Notes under the pieces: model-generated
The model's database searches: none
The model's input: only the letters and a program-made list of their open reading frames with translations
What the model was told of the DNA's origin: nothing
Position numbers and translations under genes: made by a program
Assembly: GCA_964016885.1 (NCBI GenBank)
Contig: OZ024742.1
Coordinates: 71,672,001 to 71,736,000, forward strand
DNA length: 64,000 bases
Source of the DNA: Eledone cirrhosa
Lineage: Eukaryota
Direction: 5' to 3'
Shown: positions 51,201-60,200 of the stretch, one piece after another
Layout: each line of letters opens with the position of its first letter
Position numbering within the stretch: the first letter of the stretch is position 1

Positions 51201-54200
51201 ATGACAGATCGTAGTACTCTGTCAGAGGCCTTCTCTACATCAACAAAAGCTAGCTGTAGCGGCTTACTCTGAGCTAGGAACTTCTTTTGTAGCTGTCTCA
51301 CGAAGGAGAGGGCATCTGTCATACTGATTTTCCTGTTTTTTCTTTTGTCTTGTACTGGCACAAAACCAAACTGCATCTTTTCTAGTTTGACTCTTTCTCT
51401 AATTAGTTTTGCTAGAACGTTTTCTGTCACTTTCATAAGTTGGCCCATTAGTTTCATGCCCCTGCAGTTGCTCCTTCCTGGTCCATCACCTTTTCCCTTG
51501 TAGCAATTAATGATTATACTGCTACACCAGACATTGGGTATGACTCCCTCCTGTATTACCTGATTAACTTGCAGATTAGTTCAGTTCCTACTTCCCCAGA
51601 CACGTTCAGCATCTCGGTGACAATCTCTGATGGTCCAGTGGCTTTACCATTCTTCATTGCTTCTTTGACGCTATAACTGTCTATTTCGATAGCTGATCCA
51701 TCTGTTGGGTCAGTTGGGGGTAGTCTTCCTTCTTCTCACTCATTCTTAACATTCATCAATCTTTTGTAGCAGCATTTCCAGGCCTCTTTCTTTTGGGAAG
51801 CAGTGATGCTAAGCACACCGGCTCATTTCAAACACATTTTTCCTCAACAACATCCTGATTCACATTTACACACTGCCTTGCAATACAGAACACCCTCTTC
51901 TCTGATCCTCATGTCACAAGATATTGGCAAACCTTTTTTCATGCTATGTATGCCTGCCATCTAGCTTCTCACATAGCTACCTGGTACCAGTCTCTGCTAG
52001 TCCATTTTTCCAGTCTTTCCACACCTGTCTCTTGGCCTTAATGGCTCTATCTACTGTGCTCTTCAACCATCAGGTCACCTTCTGTCTAGCTGGTGCTTTC
52101 CTTCAGCCACAAGTCTCATCAGTAGTCTGTAGTAGGTTGTCATGTAAGAACTTCCATTTGTCCTCTATGGCATATGTATCTAATTTATCTTCTCTCTCCT
52201 CATATGCATCACATAGAGCTTTAACTGAAAGGTCCTTTAGCTTCCACACTTTCCTCCTCCAAATTTTCCTGTTTTTTCTTTTGTCTTGTACTTATTCTGA
52301 TGCCACTAATAACTAACTTGTGTTGGGCAGTGCATTCTTCTCTGGAAAAGGACTTAACATTCATAACCATCTGTCTATTCCATTTTCTAACTAGTAAGAA
52401 GTCAATCTGGCTTGTGTGTTTATGAGATTGGTAGGTGATCATTTGGCTGGCAGGTTTCCTGAAATTAGTGTTACAAATCGTTACTTCATTTGTCTCACAG
52501 AATTCCAGGAGCCTCATTCTCTCTTCATTTCTTGAGCCATAACCATAGCCACCGTGTCCTTTGGTATAGCCATTCTGGTGCTGTCCAACATGTCCATTGA
52601 AGTCTTCATCAAAGATGATTAGGTCCTTGCCATCTGCCTCTGCAGTTACCTGTAAAGTTCCTCATAGAAACAGTCCTTATGTTCTTTACTCAGTCCAGCT
52701 AGGCAGAGATAATTGTGATCATTCTATTGCTTATGACCATTATAACCTTGATAATTCTATCACTTAAATTAACTACCTCTATTACCTTATTTATCCATTT
52801 CTCAGCTAGTAGAATGTCTGCCCACCTACTCCATCATCATTTCCTACTCAGCTTTTAACCATGTTGTTTGTCTGTGAGTAGTATTGCTGAGGCACCCCTC
52901 TATCTCTCTTGAACACAGCATATATCCACTCGTCTCCTCTCAAGCAACTCCACAATTTCTCGAGATCTATCTCTCAATGTACCCACATTAAAAATGGCAG
53001 CCCAGAGGTGTGTTATCTAACAGTAGTGATTAGATCCTTTAGTGGTGGTTCTTTGTACCTGGAATAATTGTGTATAATTGCTTGATTACAGTAAGGGGAT
53101 TCTCACACATGGCTAGGTGAGGAATCCCACAACCATTCACCAATATATATATATATGTTTATCCCGGGTTCATCGGGGGTAAACACAGTAAGTAAGGTAC
53201 TCATTACATAGCAGAGTATAAATATTCAATTTAGAAATGGCTTCTACAAGACTAGAACTGTTTCATTCAGGAGAAATCATCAGGAAGCCAACTGTCCAAG
53301 TAATATGATGGTATTTATTCATTTTCTGGTGGTAGGAGAGGGTAGTGATTGGGATGGGTGAAGGTCATTGGTTTATGGATTTAAAGAAAAGGGAATTCTT
53401 TAAAAACTATATTTAAAGTAACAAAGGCATATATATATATATATAAACAAGAAGTGTAAATCAACAGGGTAAAATTAGCTTCATTTATTCATATTCGCTG
53501 CTATATATATTTCAGTGATAACCATTATTCAACAGCTATGACCTCATCAGGCAGTAAGAACTTGAACAGAATAAACAAGAAAACATGATTTTACCTTGTT
53601 AATCCATTGATATGTTCAGATTCAGAGTGTGGTGTTAGTCCTCTAAGGAACTGAAAGTATATCATATGATAAGGAACTGAAAAGCATATCATATGATATG
53701 CTTTTAGTTCCTTAGAGGACTAACACCAAACTCTGGATCTGAACATAAAATCTATTACAACATTATGTTTTCCATGTTTTGCGGTGGATTGGCAGTATCG
53801 ATAGAGGGTCGGACGCCATGCTTTCCAGCATAGTTACGTCCCTTTACGATCTGAGTTCAAATCCTGCCGAGGTTGACTTTGCCTTTCATCCTTACGGGGT
53901 CGATAAAATAAAGTACCAGTAATGCACTGGGTAATTGCTGGCCTTGTGCCTAAAGTAGAAACAATTATGTTTTCCTGTTTTTTCTGTTCAAATTCTTACT
54001 GCCTGATGAGGTCATAGCTGTTGAATAATGGGTATCACTGAAATATATATAGCAGCGAATATGAATAAACAAAGTTAACTTGTTGACTTACACTTCTTGG
54101 TTTTACATTACTCCAGAGTAAACAGACCAACTTGCATACTGAAGTGTTGGTAAACAACCAACACATACTCAAAATATTATATATATATATATATGTGAAT

Positions 54201-57200: not shown

Positions 57201-60200
57201 CGACAACTAGAAATAGCAGCCAATTCCTTTCAACTGAGTTAGCTCTACAATTAAGGCGCCGTATATATATCCAAAATTAAATTAAATTGATAGGACTCGG
57301 CTGCTATTTCTAGTTGTCGATCACCCTATTCACGCCACTGGGATGAAGCTGGTATGATGTGTGTATTTAAAAAAAATGCAACACATGCTGCTAGTCATTC
57401 ACAGATTTGAATTTGCTGTGTAAACACAGATAGTTAAATCTTCTCCCTTGTTGAAAATTCGGGATTTGGCTACTGTGGTTTACCAATCGATTGATGGTGA
57501 AATATATTTCTTTAATGAAATATATACAAGGAAAATTAATCAATTTCTATTTTTAAAGTTCTAGTTAAACTTTAATTAGTTACCTACCTAGCTATGTGTG
57601 CTTACACACTTTTACAAATTATTCCCTGTGATTGTTTCATATGTTTATTTTAGATATATATATATATATATATATGTCAATCAATTTCTAGTTGGTATAA
57701 ATATATATATGGCTAAGATGTTACTAATTATATGTCTTTGGTACTTGATATGTTAATAAAAGTAGAGTGTAGATATTATTATATGGCAGCTTGAACCATC
57801 AAGACAGTTTAAAGTTGACCACTGGGCTCATATGTAATTAATTGTGTGTGCATGAATACTATCTTCACCTGCACCTTCTGTAATCTCACAATAAAAAAAA
57901 ATAATAACTAATTAATCTACATCAATGTATTGAGAGAACTAATTTGTTGGTAAAATTGCCAACTAGTGGTATTTAAAGGTTAATGTCAAGTTTGTCTTAT
58001 TAAAAGTTACTGCTGATGTTGTTTTTATATGTATTATTATATCTACACTGATTCTCTCCATTTATATCAATTAAACAGACATGGAGGCTGTCAAGCTGCA
58101 TTATTCTGTGCCCTGTGGACACTCTATGATCAACTCCATCATGACAAGTCTATAGATGTTTACCAAGTTGCTAAACTGTATCACTTTAAGCGAACTGGTA
58201 TTATTGGAAACAAAGTAAGGATTGTCTTCATTTGTTTTTCTATCCTTATGCAAACAATGAGTGTGTGTGTTGGAAGCATAAAAAACACACATTAAATGAT
58301 GTGTATATGTATGTATATGTGTGTGTGTGTGTGTGTATACATATATGAGTGTGTATTTAAATGAAACAGGATGACATTAAATTATATTGAGTCACCTTGT
58401 ATTAAGTGAAAGTGAAGTTGAATTCTACGTAAATCAATCATATTCATCTCAAACTAAATAAATAAAAGAACAAATATGTAAACAAATAAAGAATTTAATA
58501 ATCGATTGGCAGTTTGTAAGTGGTGGACAAAATACCTTGCAGTGTTTAGTTGCTTTACTCTTTTCTATGTTGAAATACTGTCACATTTGACTTTGCCTTT
58601 CATCTAATCCAGCGTTTCTCAGCTGGTGTTCCTTGGAACCCAAGGGTTCCACAAGAGGTCACTAGGGGTTCCACGAGAAACACTTATAAATAAGCTAATG
58701 CATTTTTGGCGACATGACCCTCCCAAAATATAACAATATCGGTTTCAGCACACGTTTTCAGATAAAGAATCTTGCTAAACAAATTCAGAAACGAAACATT
58801 TTTGATTAATTTTTCTTTAATTTTATATTCGTAATTTTTTATACATGTAGAGCATACTGTCGAAAAATCCTTCGTTATTATATTATTTATAAAAGTATAA
58901 TAAAAGTGAGATATTAATAAAGGTTTATAATAATTTTCATGCAGGTGTTCCCTGAGACATGAAAACTATTTCCAAGGTTTCACAAAAGTAAAAAGGTTGA
59001 GAAACGCTGATCTAGTCAGTTGCTAGAGTTTGCTGTATTCAACTGTTCATTCTACCCAAATCTGTAGCCGTGTGTCTGTTACAAATTATTAATTATTATG
59101 CATGTTAAATAATTTCCATTAATTATGATATGTTTTTGTTGTCGTTGTTGCTTCTTATAAGTATCAAGAAACAGGTGTTAGTCATAGCTGATGAAGCCAA
59201 CAATCCAAATAGTCATATTAATAATTACTAAACTATAAGATAAAAACAGGTAAGTAGTAGTCATATCTTGAAGCAACTGGGGTAAGGGAGATTACTCTAC
59301 ATATGTTATTTCTAAAATGTACCAATGGTGGTGCTTTGGAGTAGATTCTCATTGCTTTTCTTGTGTGGACATGAAAGTTAAAACTTTTTAGACAAATAAA
59401 TATTAAGGAGGTGACATTCTTGTCTTTTATAAGTTCACTAGTTATAAAAATAAAGTAAAATGCTCCTGGACTTGTTCCAGAAGTAGACTGACTCAGCTTG
59501 TCATAATTTTATCATTTCAAATTTCATTGGTTACTGTTTCATATCTAATGTGCTAACAAAGTAGTGGGTGAAGGTGTATGCTGCCTGTGTGAGCAGTGCC
59601 ATGATTTATGGGAGTGATGAACATGGAACAATAGAAAGGGCTGGAAAGAATGAAAATGTTCTTGTGGATGAGTGAAATATTTCTGAAAGAGAAAACAAGC
59701 TATGAATTGCAAAGGATAATGGGAATAGAGTCAGTGATGAATGTTGTGAATGAGATGACTGTGTCATGTGTTGAAGAAGAATGAAAGTGACTTGGTGAGA
59801 GGAATGATGGAAATGAATATTGAAGGGAGTAGGGGAAGGAAGATGACTAAACATGAAGGAGGAGAAAATGGAAACCATGCGATTGATGAGCAAGCAATAG
59901 GACAAAATGGAGAAGTTTATCATGAGTCCTGCAAGGAGAATGACTTTAAAATGCTTGTTTTTGTACTGTTTTACATCTAGTTGTTCTATGCTTCCATGCA
60001 TGGGATGATGAGGTTGTTGGGGGTATTTGAACAGATGAATGCTCTCCTCGACTGTGAGGTAGGATTTGAGCACATTTTATTGTTCAGTTCAACAAACTTA
60101 GAGAAGTGTTAGATGTTTTGATCAGGGGTATCACACATTGAATTGTAGCATCTTAGCTTCATACATGTATTTGTTTCTGTAGGAGTAGCTGTGTATTTTA

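What the first reader, a model, noticed from the sequence alone, without database searches (positions are those of the whole stretch)
53143..57710. Cluster of different (TA)n-embedded ribozyme/fold-back mini-elements: a possible undescribed retrozyme-like system
Seen: within ~4.5 kb lie five unrelated-looking short non-coding modules (about 53157-53428, 53446-54175, 54194-54714, 56590-56740, 56742-57710). Nearly every module boundary is a (TA)n run. Three modules have readable hammerhead motifs with different stem sequences, one has a broken core, and three have fold-back or direct+inverted architecture. A sixth such module lies at 3250-3487. None encodes a protein. Known: partial tandem repeats plus an inverted 5' segment, hammerheads and AT-rich targets are hallmarks of Penelope-like element insertions. 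Inference: a diverse set of non-autonomous, ribozyme-bearing elements repeatedly targets (TA)n and nests in the flanks of earlier insertions, building a dsRNA/ribozyme island in intron 12.
Basis: partly seen in the sequence, partly recalled or inferred. Interest (0 to 1): 0.72.

Follow-up and report, generated by a model that had tools for sequence, protein, structure and literature searches.

The report
Penelope-type hammerhead repeats nested in (TA)n
This stretch is a pile-up of short non-coding jumping elements that sit end-on against TA-repeat tracts; four of the five families carry a hammerhead (self-cutting RNA) motif and were likely copied in by Penelope-like retrotransposons, a published kind of event that is very common in this genome.

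Summary
The five modules, and the sixth at 3250-3487, are real, non-coding and bounded by (TA)n. Each belongs to a repeat family with about 800-4,600 candidate places in the 3-Gb genome.

They are retroposons, not MITEs. Each family has one fixed end flush with a dinucleotide microsatellite and one variable, 5'-truncated end.

Families A, B, C and D carry a type-I minimal hammerhead on the sense strand, 105-170 nt upstream of that end. The window's A copy and both B arms are intact; its C and D copies are broken. E and the sixth module have none.

My hammerhead descriptor finds 3 sites in the window, all in this region, against 0.02 expected from shuffles.

The genome has over 10,000 GIY-YIG candidate sites and intact Penelope-like (PLE) ORFs. 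PLE 3' ends are also flush with (TA)n or (CT)n. Ten of 65 sampled PLE loci carry the same kind of hammerhead in the 3' UTR.

Partial tandems, inverted copies and one-sided tails match published PLE insertion anatomy. No sequence homology to a specific autonomous PLE was found. Cleavage and RNA circles are untested.

Verdict: new members of a known kind. Earlier notes of this scan report PLE-type hammerhead repeats elsewhere in this genome.

The parts
53143..53156 (.). (TA)7 run; left edge of the nest, abutting the 3' end of A
53157..53428 (-). Family A copy, 5'-truncated (272 nt; longer copies reach about 450-560 nt). Its 3' end at 53157 is flush with (TA)n.
53238..53290 (-). Family A type-I hammerhead motif, intact. 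Helix I 6-7 bp, helix II 3 bp above a U.U mismatch, helix III 4-bp hairpin, predicted cut after A at 53245.
53429..53445 (.). (TA)8.5 run between the 5' end of A and the 3' end of the inverted B arm
53446..53671 (-). Family B, inverted copy without the SINE insert. Its 3' end at 53446 is flush with (TA)n. Hammerhead at 53498-53554 (minus).
53687..54175 (+). Family B, direct copy. It carries a roughly 190-nt SINE-like insert (about 53774-53963), a hammerhead at 53999-54055, and a 67-nt 3' extension (54109-54175) that the inverted arm lacks. It ends at (TA)n.
54178..54194 (.). (TA)n run with the 3' ends of B (left) and C (right) facing each other
54196..54567 (-). Family C: a full unit plus a 64-nt partial tandem copy (period 317). 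Its 3' end at 54196 is flush with (TA)n. Broken hammerhead at about 54320-54370.
54565..54714 (+). Inverted partial C copy at the 5' side of the C unit. The same composite recurs in at least 4 other loci.
54715..56589 (+). Not part of the hammerhead families. An older SINE-like repeat holds a 5'-truncated LINE (RVT_1, 96.9 bits). The LINE has a 125-bp tandem in its 3' UTR and an (ATT)5 tail, and is flanked by a roughly 44-bp direct repeat.
56618..56745 (-). Family D copy, 5'-truncated (about 125 of about 266 nt). Its 3' end at 56618 is flush with (AT)n(GTAT)n. Hammerhead motif at 56705-56740 with a broken helix III palindrome.
56745..57285 (-). Family E: a 517-bp unit (56745-57261) plus the first 24 nt of a tandem next unit (57262-57285). 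Its 3' end is flush with (TA)n. No hammerhead core.
57286..57701 (+). Inverted E copy that lacks the roughly 95-nt 3' tail. With the unit it forms a roughly 400-bp hairpin. It ends at (TA)n.
3356..3490 (+). Sixth module: a 135-nt family unit with its 3' end flush with a TA-rich run, preceded by an inverted arm (about 3272-3355). No type-I hammerhead by my descriptor.

Best explanation
The five modules are truncated or rearranged copies of high-copy non-coding retroposon families whose 3' ends sit flush against (TA)n or other dinucleotide repeats, and they were likely inserted one after another into a (TA)n tract by the reverse transcriptase and GIY-YIG endonuclease of Penelope-like elements (PLEs).

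Shown:
- Each family has a fixed microsatellite-flush end and a variable other end.
- A, B, C and D carry a sense-strand type-I minimal hammerhead 105-170 nt upstream of the fixed end.
- Autonomous PLEs of this genome have the same layout: a hammerhead, then 167-215 nt, then a 3' end flush with (AT)n or (CT)n.
- Partial tandems, inverted copies and one-sided 3' tails are present.

Inferred:
- The PLE endonuclease nicks the microsatellite.
- The element RNA is reverse-transcribed from its 3' end, and incomplete copying gives the 5' truncation.
- A template switch makes the inverted copy, which lacks the 60-100-nt tail.
- Each insertion splits the (TA)n tract and leaves new (TA)n targets on both sides, so later elements nest beside earlier ones.
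- The hammerheads, mostly of the palindromic-helix-III kind, would cut only when two copies pair, as in tandem or inverted transcripts. This would trim read-through or multimeric RNA to unit length.
For: Retroposon ends:
- D: 10 of 10 copies start at the same base beside a microsatellite and end at variable points (125-266 nt).
- A: 12 of 12 likewise.
- External 3' ends followed by a dinucleotide run: A 13 of 14, D 12 of 12, C 11 of 11, E all 6 distinct loci.
- B: of 9 ends found, 5 run straight into (TA)n and 4 into the extension. For 3 of those 4 (window, L004, L007) one search shows the extension ending at (TA)n.

Hammerheads:
- The descriptor finds 3 sites in the window against 0.02 in shuffles.
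- It gives 45 further rows in 296 kb of fetched loci, against about 0.1 expected.
- Intact by descriptor: A 8 of 12 loci, D 7 of 10, B 2 of 12, C 1 of 12.
- All 12 C copies keep CTGATGA and GAAAC.
- Relatives of the B motif show compensatory change in a 9-10-bp helix II: GGTCATAGC/GTTATCACC against GGTCACAGCC/GGCTGTCACC.
- Cofolding gives the double-hammerhead for B, its relative and the PLE motif.
- The majority A copy folds as a three-way junction.

PLE link:
- 10,596 GIY-YIG candidates, 150 of 150 scored over the cut-off.
- A 938-aa ORF carries RVT_1 plus a C-terminal GIY-YIG.
- 9 of 20 PLE loci share one 3' terminus flush with (TA)n.
- 10 of 65 PLE loci carry TGAACCTGAAGATTGCGAAAGCATGAAAGTACTTGTTCA in the 3' UTR. 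It has the same U.U-based 3-bp helix II as A and C. These loci show two 3' end forms that differ by a roughly 45-nt tail.

Architecture matches the descriptions in PMC8557442 and PMC4209133 (passages read).
Against: - blastn found no homology between the families and 65 sampled PLE loci, apart from separate nested insertions. No autonomous partner is identified.
- Rfam reports no hammerhead in the window. A control shows Rfam also misses the PLE and family motifs.
- The hammerhead folds are not more stable than shuffles (z -1.7 to +0.2).
- C and D dimers do not give the double-hammerhead as the best fold.
- E and the sixth module have no hammerhead.
- Many copies carry core mutations: B has CTGATGA changed in 5 of 12 copies and GAAA in 5 of 12.
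- Self-cleavage and RNA ends are untested.
Confidence: 0.72

Rival explanations
1. The families are SINE-like elements mobilised by a microsatellite-targeting LINE, for example an R4/Dong-type element. The hammerheads would then be passengers without a link to PLEs.
For: The fixed 3' end flush with a microsatellite and the 5' truncation are also what target-primed reverse transcription by such LINEs would give. A repeat annotation of an octopus genome lists Dong-R4 among recently active LINEs (PMC13282606, passages read). No PLE partner was found by homology.
Against: Autonomous PLEs in this genome show the same three things together: a hammerhead, a tail and a microsatellite-flush end. Partial tandems, inverted copies and one-sided tails are PLE traits (PMC8557442). 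The U.U-based helix II is shared by A, C and the PLE motif. No R4-type LINE was examined here.
Confidence: 0.12
2. The copies were made from circular RNA by rolling-circle reverse transcription, as proposed for metazoan non-LTR retrozymes.
For: C and E carry partial tandem junctions (1.2 and 1.05 units). Some E loci are permuted, for example q107-544 followed by q3-140. A 310-bp tandem hammerhead array lies by chance in L010.
Against: Every family has one fixed end. Circles primed at random would give permuted ends. A, B and D occur as single, 5'-truncated units. E, the most tandem-like family, has no hammerhead. RNA circles could not be tested.
Confidence: 0.1
3. The modules are MITEs of a TA-targeting DNA transposon (Tc1/mariner type), or non-autonomous Helitron/Helentron elements.
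For: Long inverted repeats are present, (TA)n lies at both sides, and there are tandem pieces.
Against: The inverted arms are second copies that most other loci lack: B shows a single arm in 9 of 11 other loci. One end is variable. The flanks are long (TA)n, (CT)n or (AC)n runs, not a TA duplication. The ends (GATAAAC, CTTGTT, ACATTCA, CTTTTAC, TTTTGGA) do not fit the Helitron 5'-TC...CTRR-3' rule, which I recall rather than looked up.
Confidence: 0.04

Closest known systems
Minimal type-I hammerheads of Penelope-like elements (Cervera and de la Pena 2014, PMC4209133; passages read)
   Same: CUGANGA...GAA core and type-I order. Helix I of 4-7 bp. [quoted passage not shown] A short palindromic helix III (ACGU, AUAUAUAU, ACAGACUGU). 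Pairs of motifs on opposite strands 100-700 bp apart (the B arms are about 450 bp apart). Most motifs are dispersed in truncated copies.
   Different: A has a 4-bp hairpin helix III and could act as a monomer. A, C and the PLE motif of this genome have only 3 bp in helix II above a U.U mismatch. That mismatch is reported for the axolotl HHR_Amex2 motif (PMC7229834). It is not mentioned in the passages of PMC4209133 that I read.
PLE insertion anatomy: Naiad, Neptune and canonical EN+ PLEs (Craig et al. 2021, PMC8557442; passages read)
   Same: High 5' truncation, partial tandems (pLTR), an inverted copy at the 5' side, an extension ('tail') at one end only, and insertion bias for (TA)n and other microsatellites.
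   Different: The modules have no ORF. Their one-sided tails are 60-100 nt, not 30-40 bp. The paper reports that Naiads lack canonical hammerheads, whereas these families have them. The PLEs sampled here have a C-terminal endonuclease.
Metazoan non-LTR retrozymes (Cervera and de la Pena 2020, PMC7229834, passages read; Li, Clavereau and Pollet 2026 preprint 10.64898/2026.07.22.740005, abstract and section 14 read)
   Same: Non-autonomous, non-coding, AT-rich elements of 130-560 nt with type-I hammerheads. They coexist with PLEs and have a proposed PLE origin.
   Different: Retrozymes are head-to-tail arrays thought to spread through circular RNA. The window families are dispersed single units with a fixed 3' end and 5' truncation, which points to a linear template.
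Non-autonomous Chlamys PLE derivatives such as MRC1 (PMC8557442, passage read)
   Same: Short non-coding elements that form pLTRs and head-to-tail copies and depend on a PLE.
   Different: Those share 3' sequence with their autonomous families. No such match was found here in 65 PLE loci.

Membership tests
PLE-type minimal hammerhead ribozyme | Conserved core CUGANGA ... GAA with A15.1/U16.1 and a non-G cleavage nucleotide, in type-I order | tested here: met
   Met in window copies A and B (both arms) and in most copies of D. All 12 C copies keep both core boxes. The window's C and D copies are broken.
PLE-type minimal hammerhead ribozyme | Short helix I, bulged or long helix II, short palindromic helix III that allows dimers | tested here: met
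   Met for B, C and D. Cofolding gives the double-hammerhead for B, its relative and the PLE motif, but not for C or D. A has a hairpin helix III instead.
PLE-type minimal hammerhead ribozyme | More frequent than chance, and supported by covariation | tested here: met
   3 sites against 0.02 per 64 kb. Compensatory changes occur in helix II of B-type motifs. Within families, changes mostly break pairs, as expected of neutral decay.
PLE-type minimal hammerhead ribozyme | Self-cleavage at the predicted site | not testable with these tools
   No RNA run was listed.
Penelope-like element insertion (non-autonomous derivative) | 5' truncation with a common 3' end | tested here: met
Penelope-like element insertion (non-autonomous derivative) | Partial tandem (pLTR), adjacent inverted copy, one-sided tail | tested here: met
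   C and E show the partial tandem. B, C and E show inverted copies, as do A in 4 of 40 scored loci and D in L043. Tails are missing from the inverted copies of A, B and E.
Penelope-like element insertion (non-autonomous derivative) | Microsatellite, mostly (TA)n, insertion bias | tested here: met
   the same holds for autonomous PLE copies
Penelope-like element insertion (non-autonomous derivative) | 3' sequence shared with an autonomous RT + GIY-YIG element | tested here: not met
   No blastn match to 65 PLE loci other than nested insertions. This is a small sample of more than 10,000 candidates.
Metazoan non-LTR retrozyme | Head-to-tail arrays of 170-400-bp units, each with a hammerhead | tested here: not met
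   A, B and D are single units. C is 1.2 units with one motif. E has no motif.
Metazoan non-LTR retrozyme | Expressed as circular RNA | not testable with these tools
   no RNA holder listed
MITE of a TA-targeting DNA transposon | Terminal inverted repeats and both ends fixed in all copies; TA duplication | tested here: not met
tRNA-derived SINE (insert inside B) | tRNA-like 5' head | tested here: not met
   ARAGORN found 0 genes. Rfam at E<=10 on 53770-53900 gave no tRNA hit. The B-box-like GAGTTCAAATCC was noted by eye only.

The most novel reading that the evidence does not exclude
The hammerhead-to-3'-end module (about 100-215 nt) is a portable cassette that makes any RNA a template for Penelope-like reverse transcription at microsatellites. 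Family B would be the proof: a cassette-bearing element picked up an unrelated SINE and the composite then amplified. Such 'PLE-SINEs' would make up much of what is filed as unclassified SINEs in this kind of genome. The inverted copies that always stop 60-100 nt short of the 3' end would mark the template-switch point of the PLE enzyme.
Probability: 0.3. Interest if true: 0.6.

Novelty: new member of a known kind. Interest (0 to 1): 0.34.

Why it matters
It explains why unrelated repeat families share microsatellite flanks in this genome. It also shows how one (TA)n tract grows into a multi-kilobase nest, because each insertion leaves new targets on both sides.

It gives a practical rule for annotating short unclassified repeats: a sense-strand minimal hammerhead 100-200 nt from a microsatellite-flush end marks a PLE-dependent element.

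The nests place roughly 400-bp perfect hairpins (E: -580 kcal/mol) and ribozyme motifs in transcribable DNA. That could matter for double-stranded RNA sensing or editing, but this is untested.

The consistent loss of the 3' tail in inverted copies is a testable clue to the unknown PLE integration mechanism.

Tried and rejected
- Rfam, window: at gathering thresholds on the whole window and at E<=10 on 52900-58000 it gave no hammerhead. It gave only miRNA-like hits on hairpins and TA runs.
- Rfam, control: on 5 loci only the 310-bp tandem motif of L010 scored (HH9, 23 bits against 52). Rfam silence is therefore uninformative.
- tRNA-likeness of the B insert: none found.
- RNA evidence: no RNA holder listed. 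The 3 holders are contigs of one study.
- Homology of the families to PLE loci by blastn: only separate nested insertions, namely C in L058, A in L102, L117, L128 and L137, and D in L132.
- ADAR-type A>G bias in the two E arms: none. There were 7 and 11 private changes of mixed types.
- Shared derived variants of the E arms, which would show one event: 1, the same as random pairs. This is uninformative.
- Hammerhead in E: no CTGANGA on either strand of the window's E copies (my reading). The one core-variant site I checked by eye in that sequence (TTGAAAA...GAAAUAUAU) gives only 1 bp of helix I. Rejected.
- Sixth module as a type-II or permuted hammerhead (GAAACGU before CUGAAGA): helix I is 2 bp and helix II is offset by a loop. 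Rejected.
- Earlier-notes look-up by sequence for E and the sixth module: nothing.
- Literature search for 'hammerhead ribozyme' plus 'octopus': 5 papers hold both terms (4 listed); by title or abstract start, none of those listed is on hammerheads of such genomes.

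
Full report
**What is there**

The region was read. (TA)n runs lie at 53143-53156, 53429-53445, 54178-54194, 56590-56609, 56742-56753, 56872-56883, 57654-57675 and 57701-57710. That is 8 of the window's 24 (TA)>=5 runs, inside 4.6 kb.

Between the runs lie the five modules. A block at 54715-56589 is of a different nature. 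It is an older SINE-like repeat holding a 5'-truncated LINE (RVT_1 at 96.9 bits). All 9 ATG ORFs of 60 aa or more in the finding lie in this block, so the five modules have none.

**Copy number**

The window is G000:C3:71672001-71736000 in a 3.0-Gb genome. Every module is a high-copy interspersed repeat. First-look candidate places, with 40 scored each, were:

| Family | Candidates | Identity of scored copies |
|---|---|---|
| A | 4438 | about 90% |
| B | 4626 | 85-90% |
| C | 3740 | about 90% |
| D | 1395 | 96-98% |
| E | 3905 | 85-93% |
| Sixth module | 807 | 83-85% |

So 'single-copy' is refuted.

**The modules are retroposons, not MITEs**

Aligning copies with their flanks shows, for each family, one end that is always the same base and lies against a microsatellite. 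The other end varies.

- D: 10 of 10 copies start at GTAAAAGG... beside (TA)n, (TG)n or mixed runs, and end after 125-266 nt.
- A: 12 of 12 copies start at GTTTATCC... beside (TA)n or (GA)n, and reach 256 to about 560 nt.

Counting 3' ends gives the following:

| Family | 3' ends followed by a dinucleotide run | Notes |
|---|---|---|
| A | 13 of 14 | 11 (TA)n, 2 (CT)n |
| D | 12 of 12 | 9 AT-type, 3 (AC)n |
| C | 11 of 11 external ends | 16 further rows are the internal tandem junction |
| E | all 6 distinct loci | 7 further rows are the tandem junction |
| B | 5 of 9 directly | the other 4 run into an extension; one search shows it ending at (TA)n in 3 of them (window, L004, L007) |

A fixed end plus a variable end is the signature of reverse transcription primed at the target from the RNA's 3' end. 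It fixes the sense strand as minus for A, C, D and E, and plus for B and the sixth module.

The 'terminal inverted repeats' are second, inverted copies, and most other loci lack them. B shows a single arm in 9 of 11 other loci.

**Hammerheads**

On the sense strand, 105-170 nt upstream of the fixed end, A, B, C and D carry a type-I hammerhead. Real copies read as follows.

- A (L021): GGCTTCCTGATGATTTCTCCCGAATGAAACAGTTCTAGTCCTGTAGAAGCC. Helix I is 6 bp. Helix II is 3 bp above a U.U mismatch. Helix III is a 4-bp hairpin.
- B (L003): TAGCTGCCTGATGAGGTCATAGCTGTTGAATAATGGTTGTCACTGAAATATATATTGCAGCTA. Helix II is 9 bp with one C.C mismatch. Helix III is the palindrome AUAUAUAU.
- C (L030): GGCTCTGATGATCGCCAAACTGCGTGAAACACACTGTTAGCT.
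- D (L038): TCTTCTGATGAAGGACTAGCGTCCGAAACGTTAAGA. It has an unpaired A before helix II. Helix III is the palindrome ACGU.

A descriptor I wrote requires:
- the core
- helix I of at least 4 bp
- helix II of at least 3 bp, allowing a 5' bulge or a base mismatch
- helix III either palindromic or a hairpin
- a non-G cleavage nucleotide

It finds 3 sites in the 64-kb window: A and both B arms. 300 dinucleotide shuffles give a mean of 0.02 and a maximum of 1. A stricter version also gave 3 sites, against 0.02 in 200 shuffles.

In 296,468 bases of loci L001-L081 the descriptor gives 54 rows. Nine of these are the window seen again. That leaves 45 rows against about 0.1 expected. They come from many unrelated families.

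| Family | Loci intact by descriptor |
|---|---|
| A | 8 of 12 |
| D | 7 of 10 |
| B | 2 of 12 |
| C | 1 of 12 |

C scores low because its helix III is a 9-nt near-palindrome that the descriptor rejects. All 12 C copies keep CTGATGA and GAAAC.

B-type motifs elsewhere have helix II as GGTCACAGCC/GGCTGTCACC or GGTCATAGCC/GGCTATCATC. These keep the pairs through changes on both sides.

In the window, A and both B arms are intact. D has AGGU in place of ACGU. C has a 3-nt insert and helix II changes.

E and the sixth module have no such motif (my reading for E; for the sixth module).

Folding gives limited support:
- The majority A copy folds as the expected three-way junction, but with z of only -1.2.
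- The minimal motifs do not fold as monomers, as expected.
- Cofolding two copies gives the classical double-hammerhead for B, its relative and the PLE motif. It does not for C or D.

Rfam is silent, but it also misses these motifs in a control. Only the L010 tandem motif scores, at 23 bits against a gathering score of 52.

**Link to Penelope-like elements**

- The genome holds 10,596 first-look GIY-YIG candidates. All 150 scored were over Pfam's cut-off.
[quoted passage not shown] One ORF of 1096 aa has RVT_1 at 39.4 bits.
- Of 20 PLE loci, 17 have (TA)>=5 downstream. Nine share one 3' terminus flush with (TA)n, 627-874 nt after the ORF.
- Ten of the 65 PLE loci sampled (20 + 5 + 40) carry a hammerhead in the 3' UTR: TGAACCTGAAGATTGCGAAAGCATGAAAGTACTTGTTCA.
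  - It has the same U.U-based 3-bp helix II as A and C.
  - Its helix III is the palindrome AGUACU.
- Copies of this hammerhead-bearing PLE family end 167 nt after the core, flush with (AT)n. Alternatively they end about 215 nt after it, flush with (CT)n or (TA)n. The two forms differ by a roughly 45-nt tail.

So the layout 'hammerhead, then 100-215 nt, then a microsatellite-flush end, with an optional tail' is shared by autonomous PLEs and by the families in the window.

blastn finds no sequence homology between them. The only hits are separate nested insertions. The partner remains unidentified.

**Tandem, inverted and tail features**

- C has a period of 317 nt. Every copy carries a 64-90-nt partial upstream copy. 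The composite with an inverted piece up to 54714 recurs in at least 4 other loci.
- E is a 517-bp unit, plus 24 nt of the next unit, plus an inverted copy that stops about 95 nt short of the 3' end. Other loci show partial tandems and the same inverted form. If transcribed, the pair would fold into a roughly 400-bp hairpin of -579.8 kcal/mol, against -166 for shuffles.
- B is a head-to-head pair. The left arm matches the right at 93-95%, but has 20 nt where the right has 215 nt.
  - The extra piece is a young, roughly 190-nt SINE-like element with 95-99% copies elsewhere. These copies are flanked by unique DNA and a short duplication, not by microsatellites.
  - The SINE-bearing form has the same junction in the 11 other B loci, so the composite itself amplified.
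  - The right copy has a 67-nt 3' extension that the inverted arm lacks.
- For A, 4 of 40 scored loci have an adjacent inverted partner. In 3 of these the partner ends at position 61-68 of the unit, so it again lacks the tail.
- D forms a head-to-head pair in L043.

These match the traits described for PLEs: high 5' truncation, partial tandems, an inverted copy at the 5' side, a tail at one end only, and microsatellite bias with (TA)n (PMC8557442, passages read). The hammerhead traits match PMC4209133 (passages read).

**Mechanism**

Inferred:
1. The PLE endonuclease nicks a microsatellite.
2. The RNA is copied from its 3' end.
3. Incomplete copying truncates the 5' side.
4. A template switch gives the tail-less inverted copy.
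5. Each insertion splits the tract, so that 3' ends now face each other across short (TA)n remnants. B and C do so at 54178-54194.

The palindromic-helix-III hammerheads would cut only when two copies pair.

**Comparison and novelty**

The kind is known in three respects:
- minimal hammerheads in PLE termini and dispersed truncated copies (PMC4209133)
- non-autonomous hammerhead elements tied to PLEs (PMC7229834; preprint 10.64898/2026.07.22.740005, abstract and section 14 read)
- microsatellite-biased, tandem/inverted PLE insertions (PMC8557442)

The window families differ from retrozymes. They are dispersed single units with a fixed 3' end.

A repeat annotation of an octopus genome lists 893 families of unclassified SINEs. 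Neither 'hammerhead' nor 'retrozyme' occurs in its main text (PMC13282606; word search and passages read). I did not establish the species of this window.

Earlier notes of this scan, which are unchecked leads, report PLE-type hammerhead repeats at other places in the same genome. By chance I saw one such 310-bp tandem array in L010.

**Verdict**

This is an ordinary though instructive instance of a known kind. No autonomous partner, RNA cleavage or RNA circle was shown.

Noticed in passing
window 54715-56589: A 5'-truncated LINE: an RT fragment at 55031-56205, a 125-bp tandem in its 3' UTR, and an (ATT)5 tail at 56476-56491. It sits inside an older SINE-like repeat. The insert is flanked by a roughly 44-bp direct repeat (54889-54932 and 56488-56535). 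At its 5' side it begins with a second copy of the host repeat's own 99-nt segment (54932-55030, 91% to 54793-54891).
   Followed up: partly
window 53774-53963; L082-L088: A young, roughly 190-nt SINE-like element with 95-99% identical copies. It is flanked by short duplications rather than microsatellites, and sometimes forms 2-3 head-to-tail units (for example L082 414-986). No tRNA-like head was detected by ARAGORN or Rfam.
   Followed up: partly
L010 2030-3025: A 310-bp tandem array with four identical hammerheads (GTAGTCCTGATGAATTCTAACAAGAATGAAACGCGTAGATTAC). It is retrozyme-like and was found by chance in the flank of a B-family locus. These are the only hammerhead-family matches among the 150 rows listed (HH9, 23 bits).
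   Followed up: no
L057-L076 (9 loci): An abundant PLE family with a roughly 650-nt 3' UTR ending ...CTCCCTGTTTTCA flush with (TA)n. It has no type-I hammerhead downstream of the ORF by my descriptor.
   Followed up: no
window 3491-3540; L090, L097, L024: Another repeat (CTCCGTCATCCTTATTTTGAAGAAGTAATATG...) whose end also abuts the TA run beside the sixth module. It recurs next to that family in other loci.
   Followed up: no
window 61720-62937: A second dense cluster of (TA)n runs: 11 of the window's 24. I did not examine it for nested elements. My descriptor finds no hammerhead there.
   Followed up: no
L014 and L015: Two A-family loci 23 kb apart on C4 are 99.7% identical over about 1.97 kb of compared sequence. 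This is a local segmental duplication, not two insertions.
   Followed up: no
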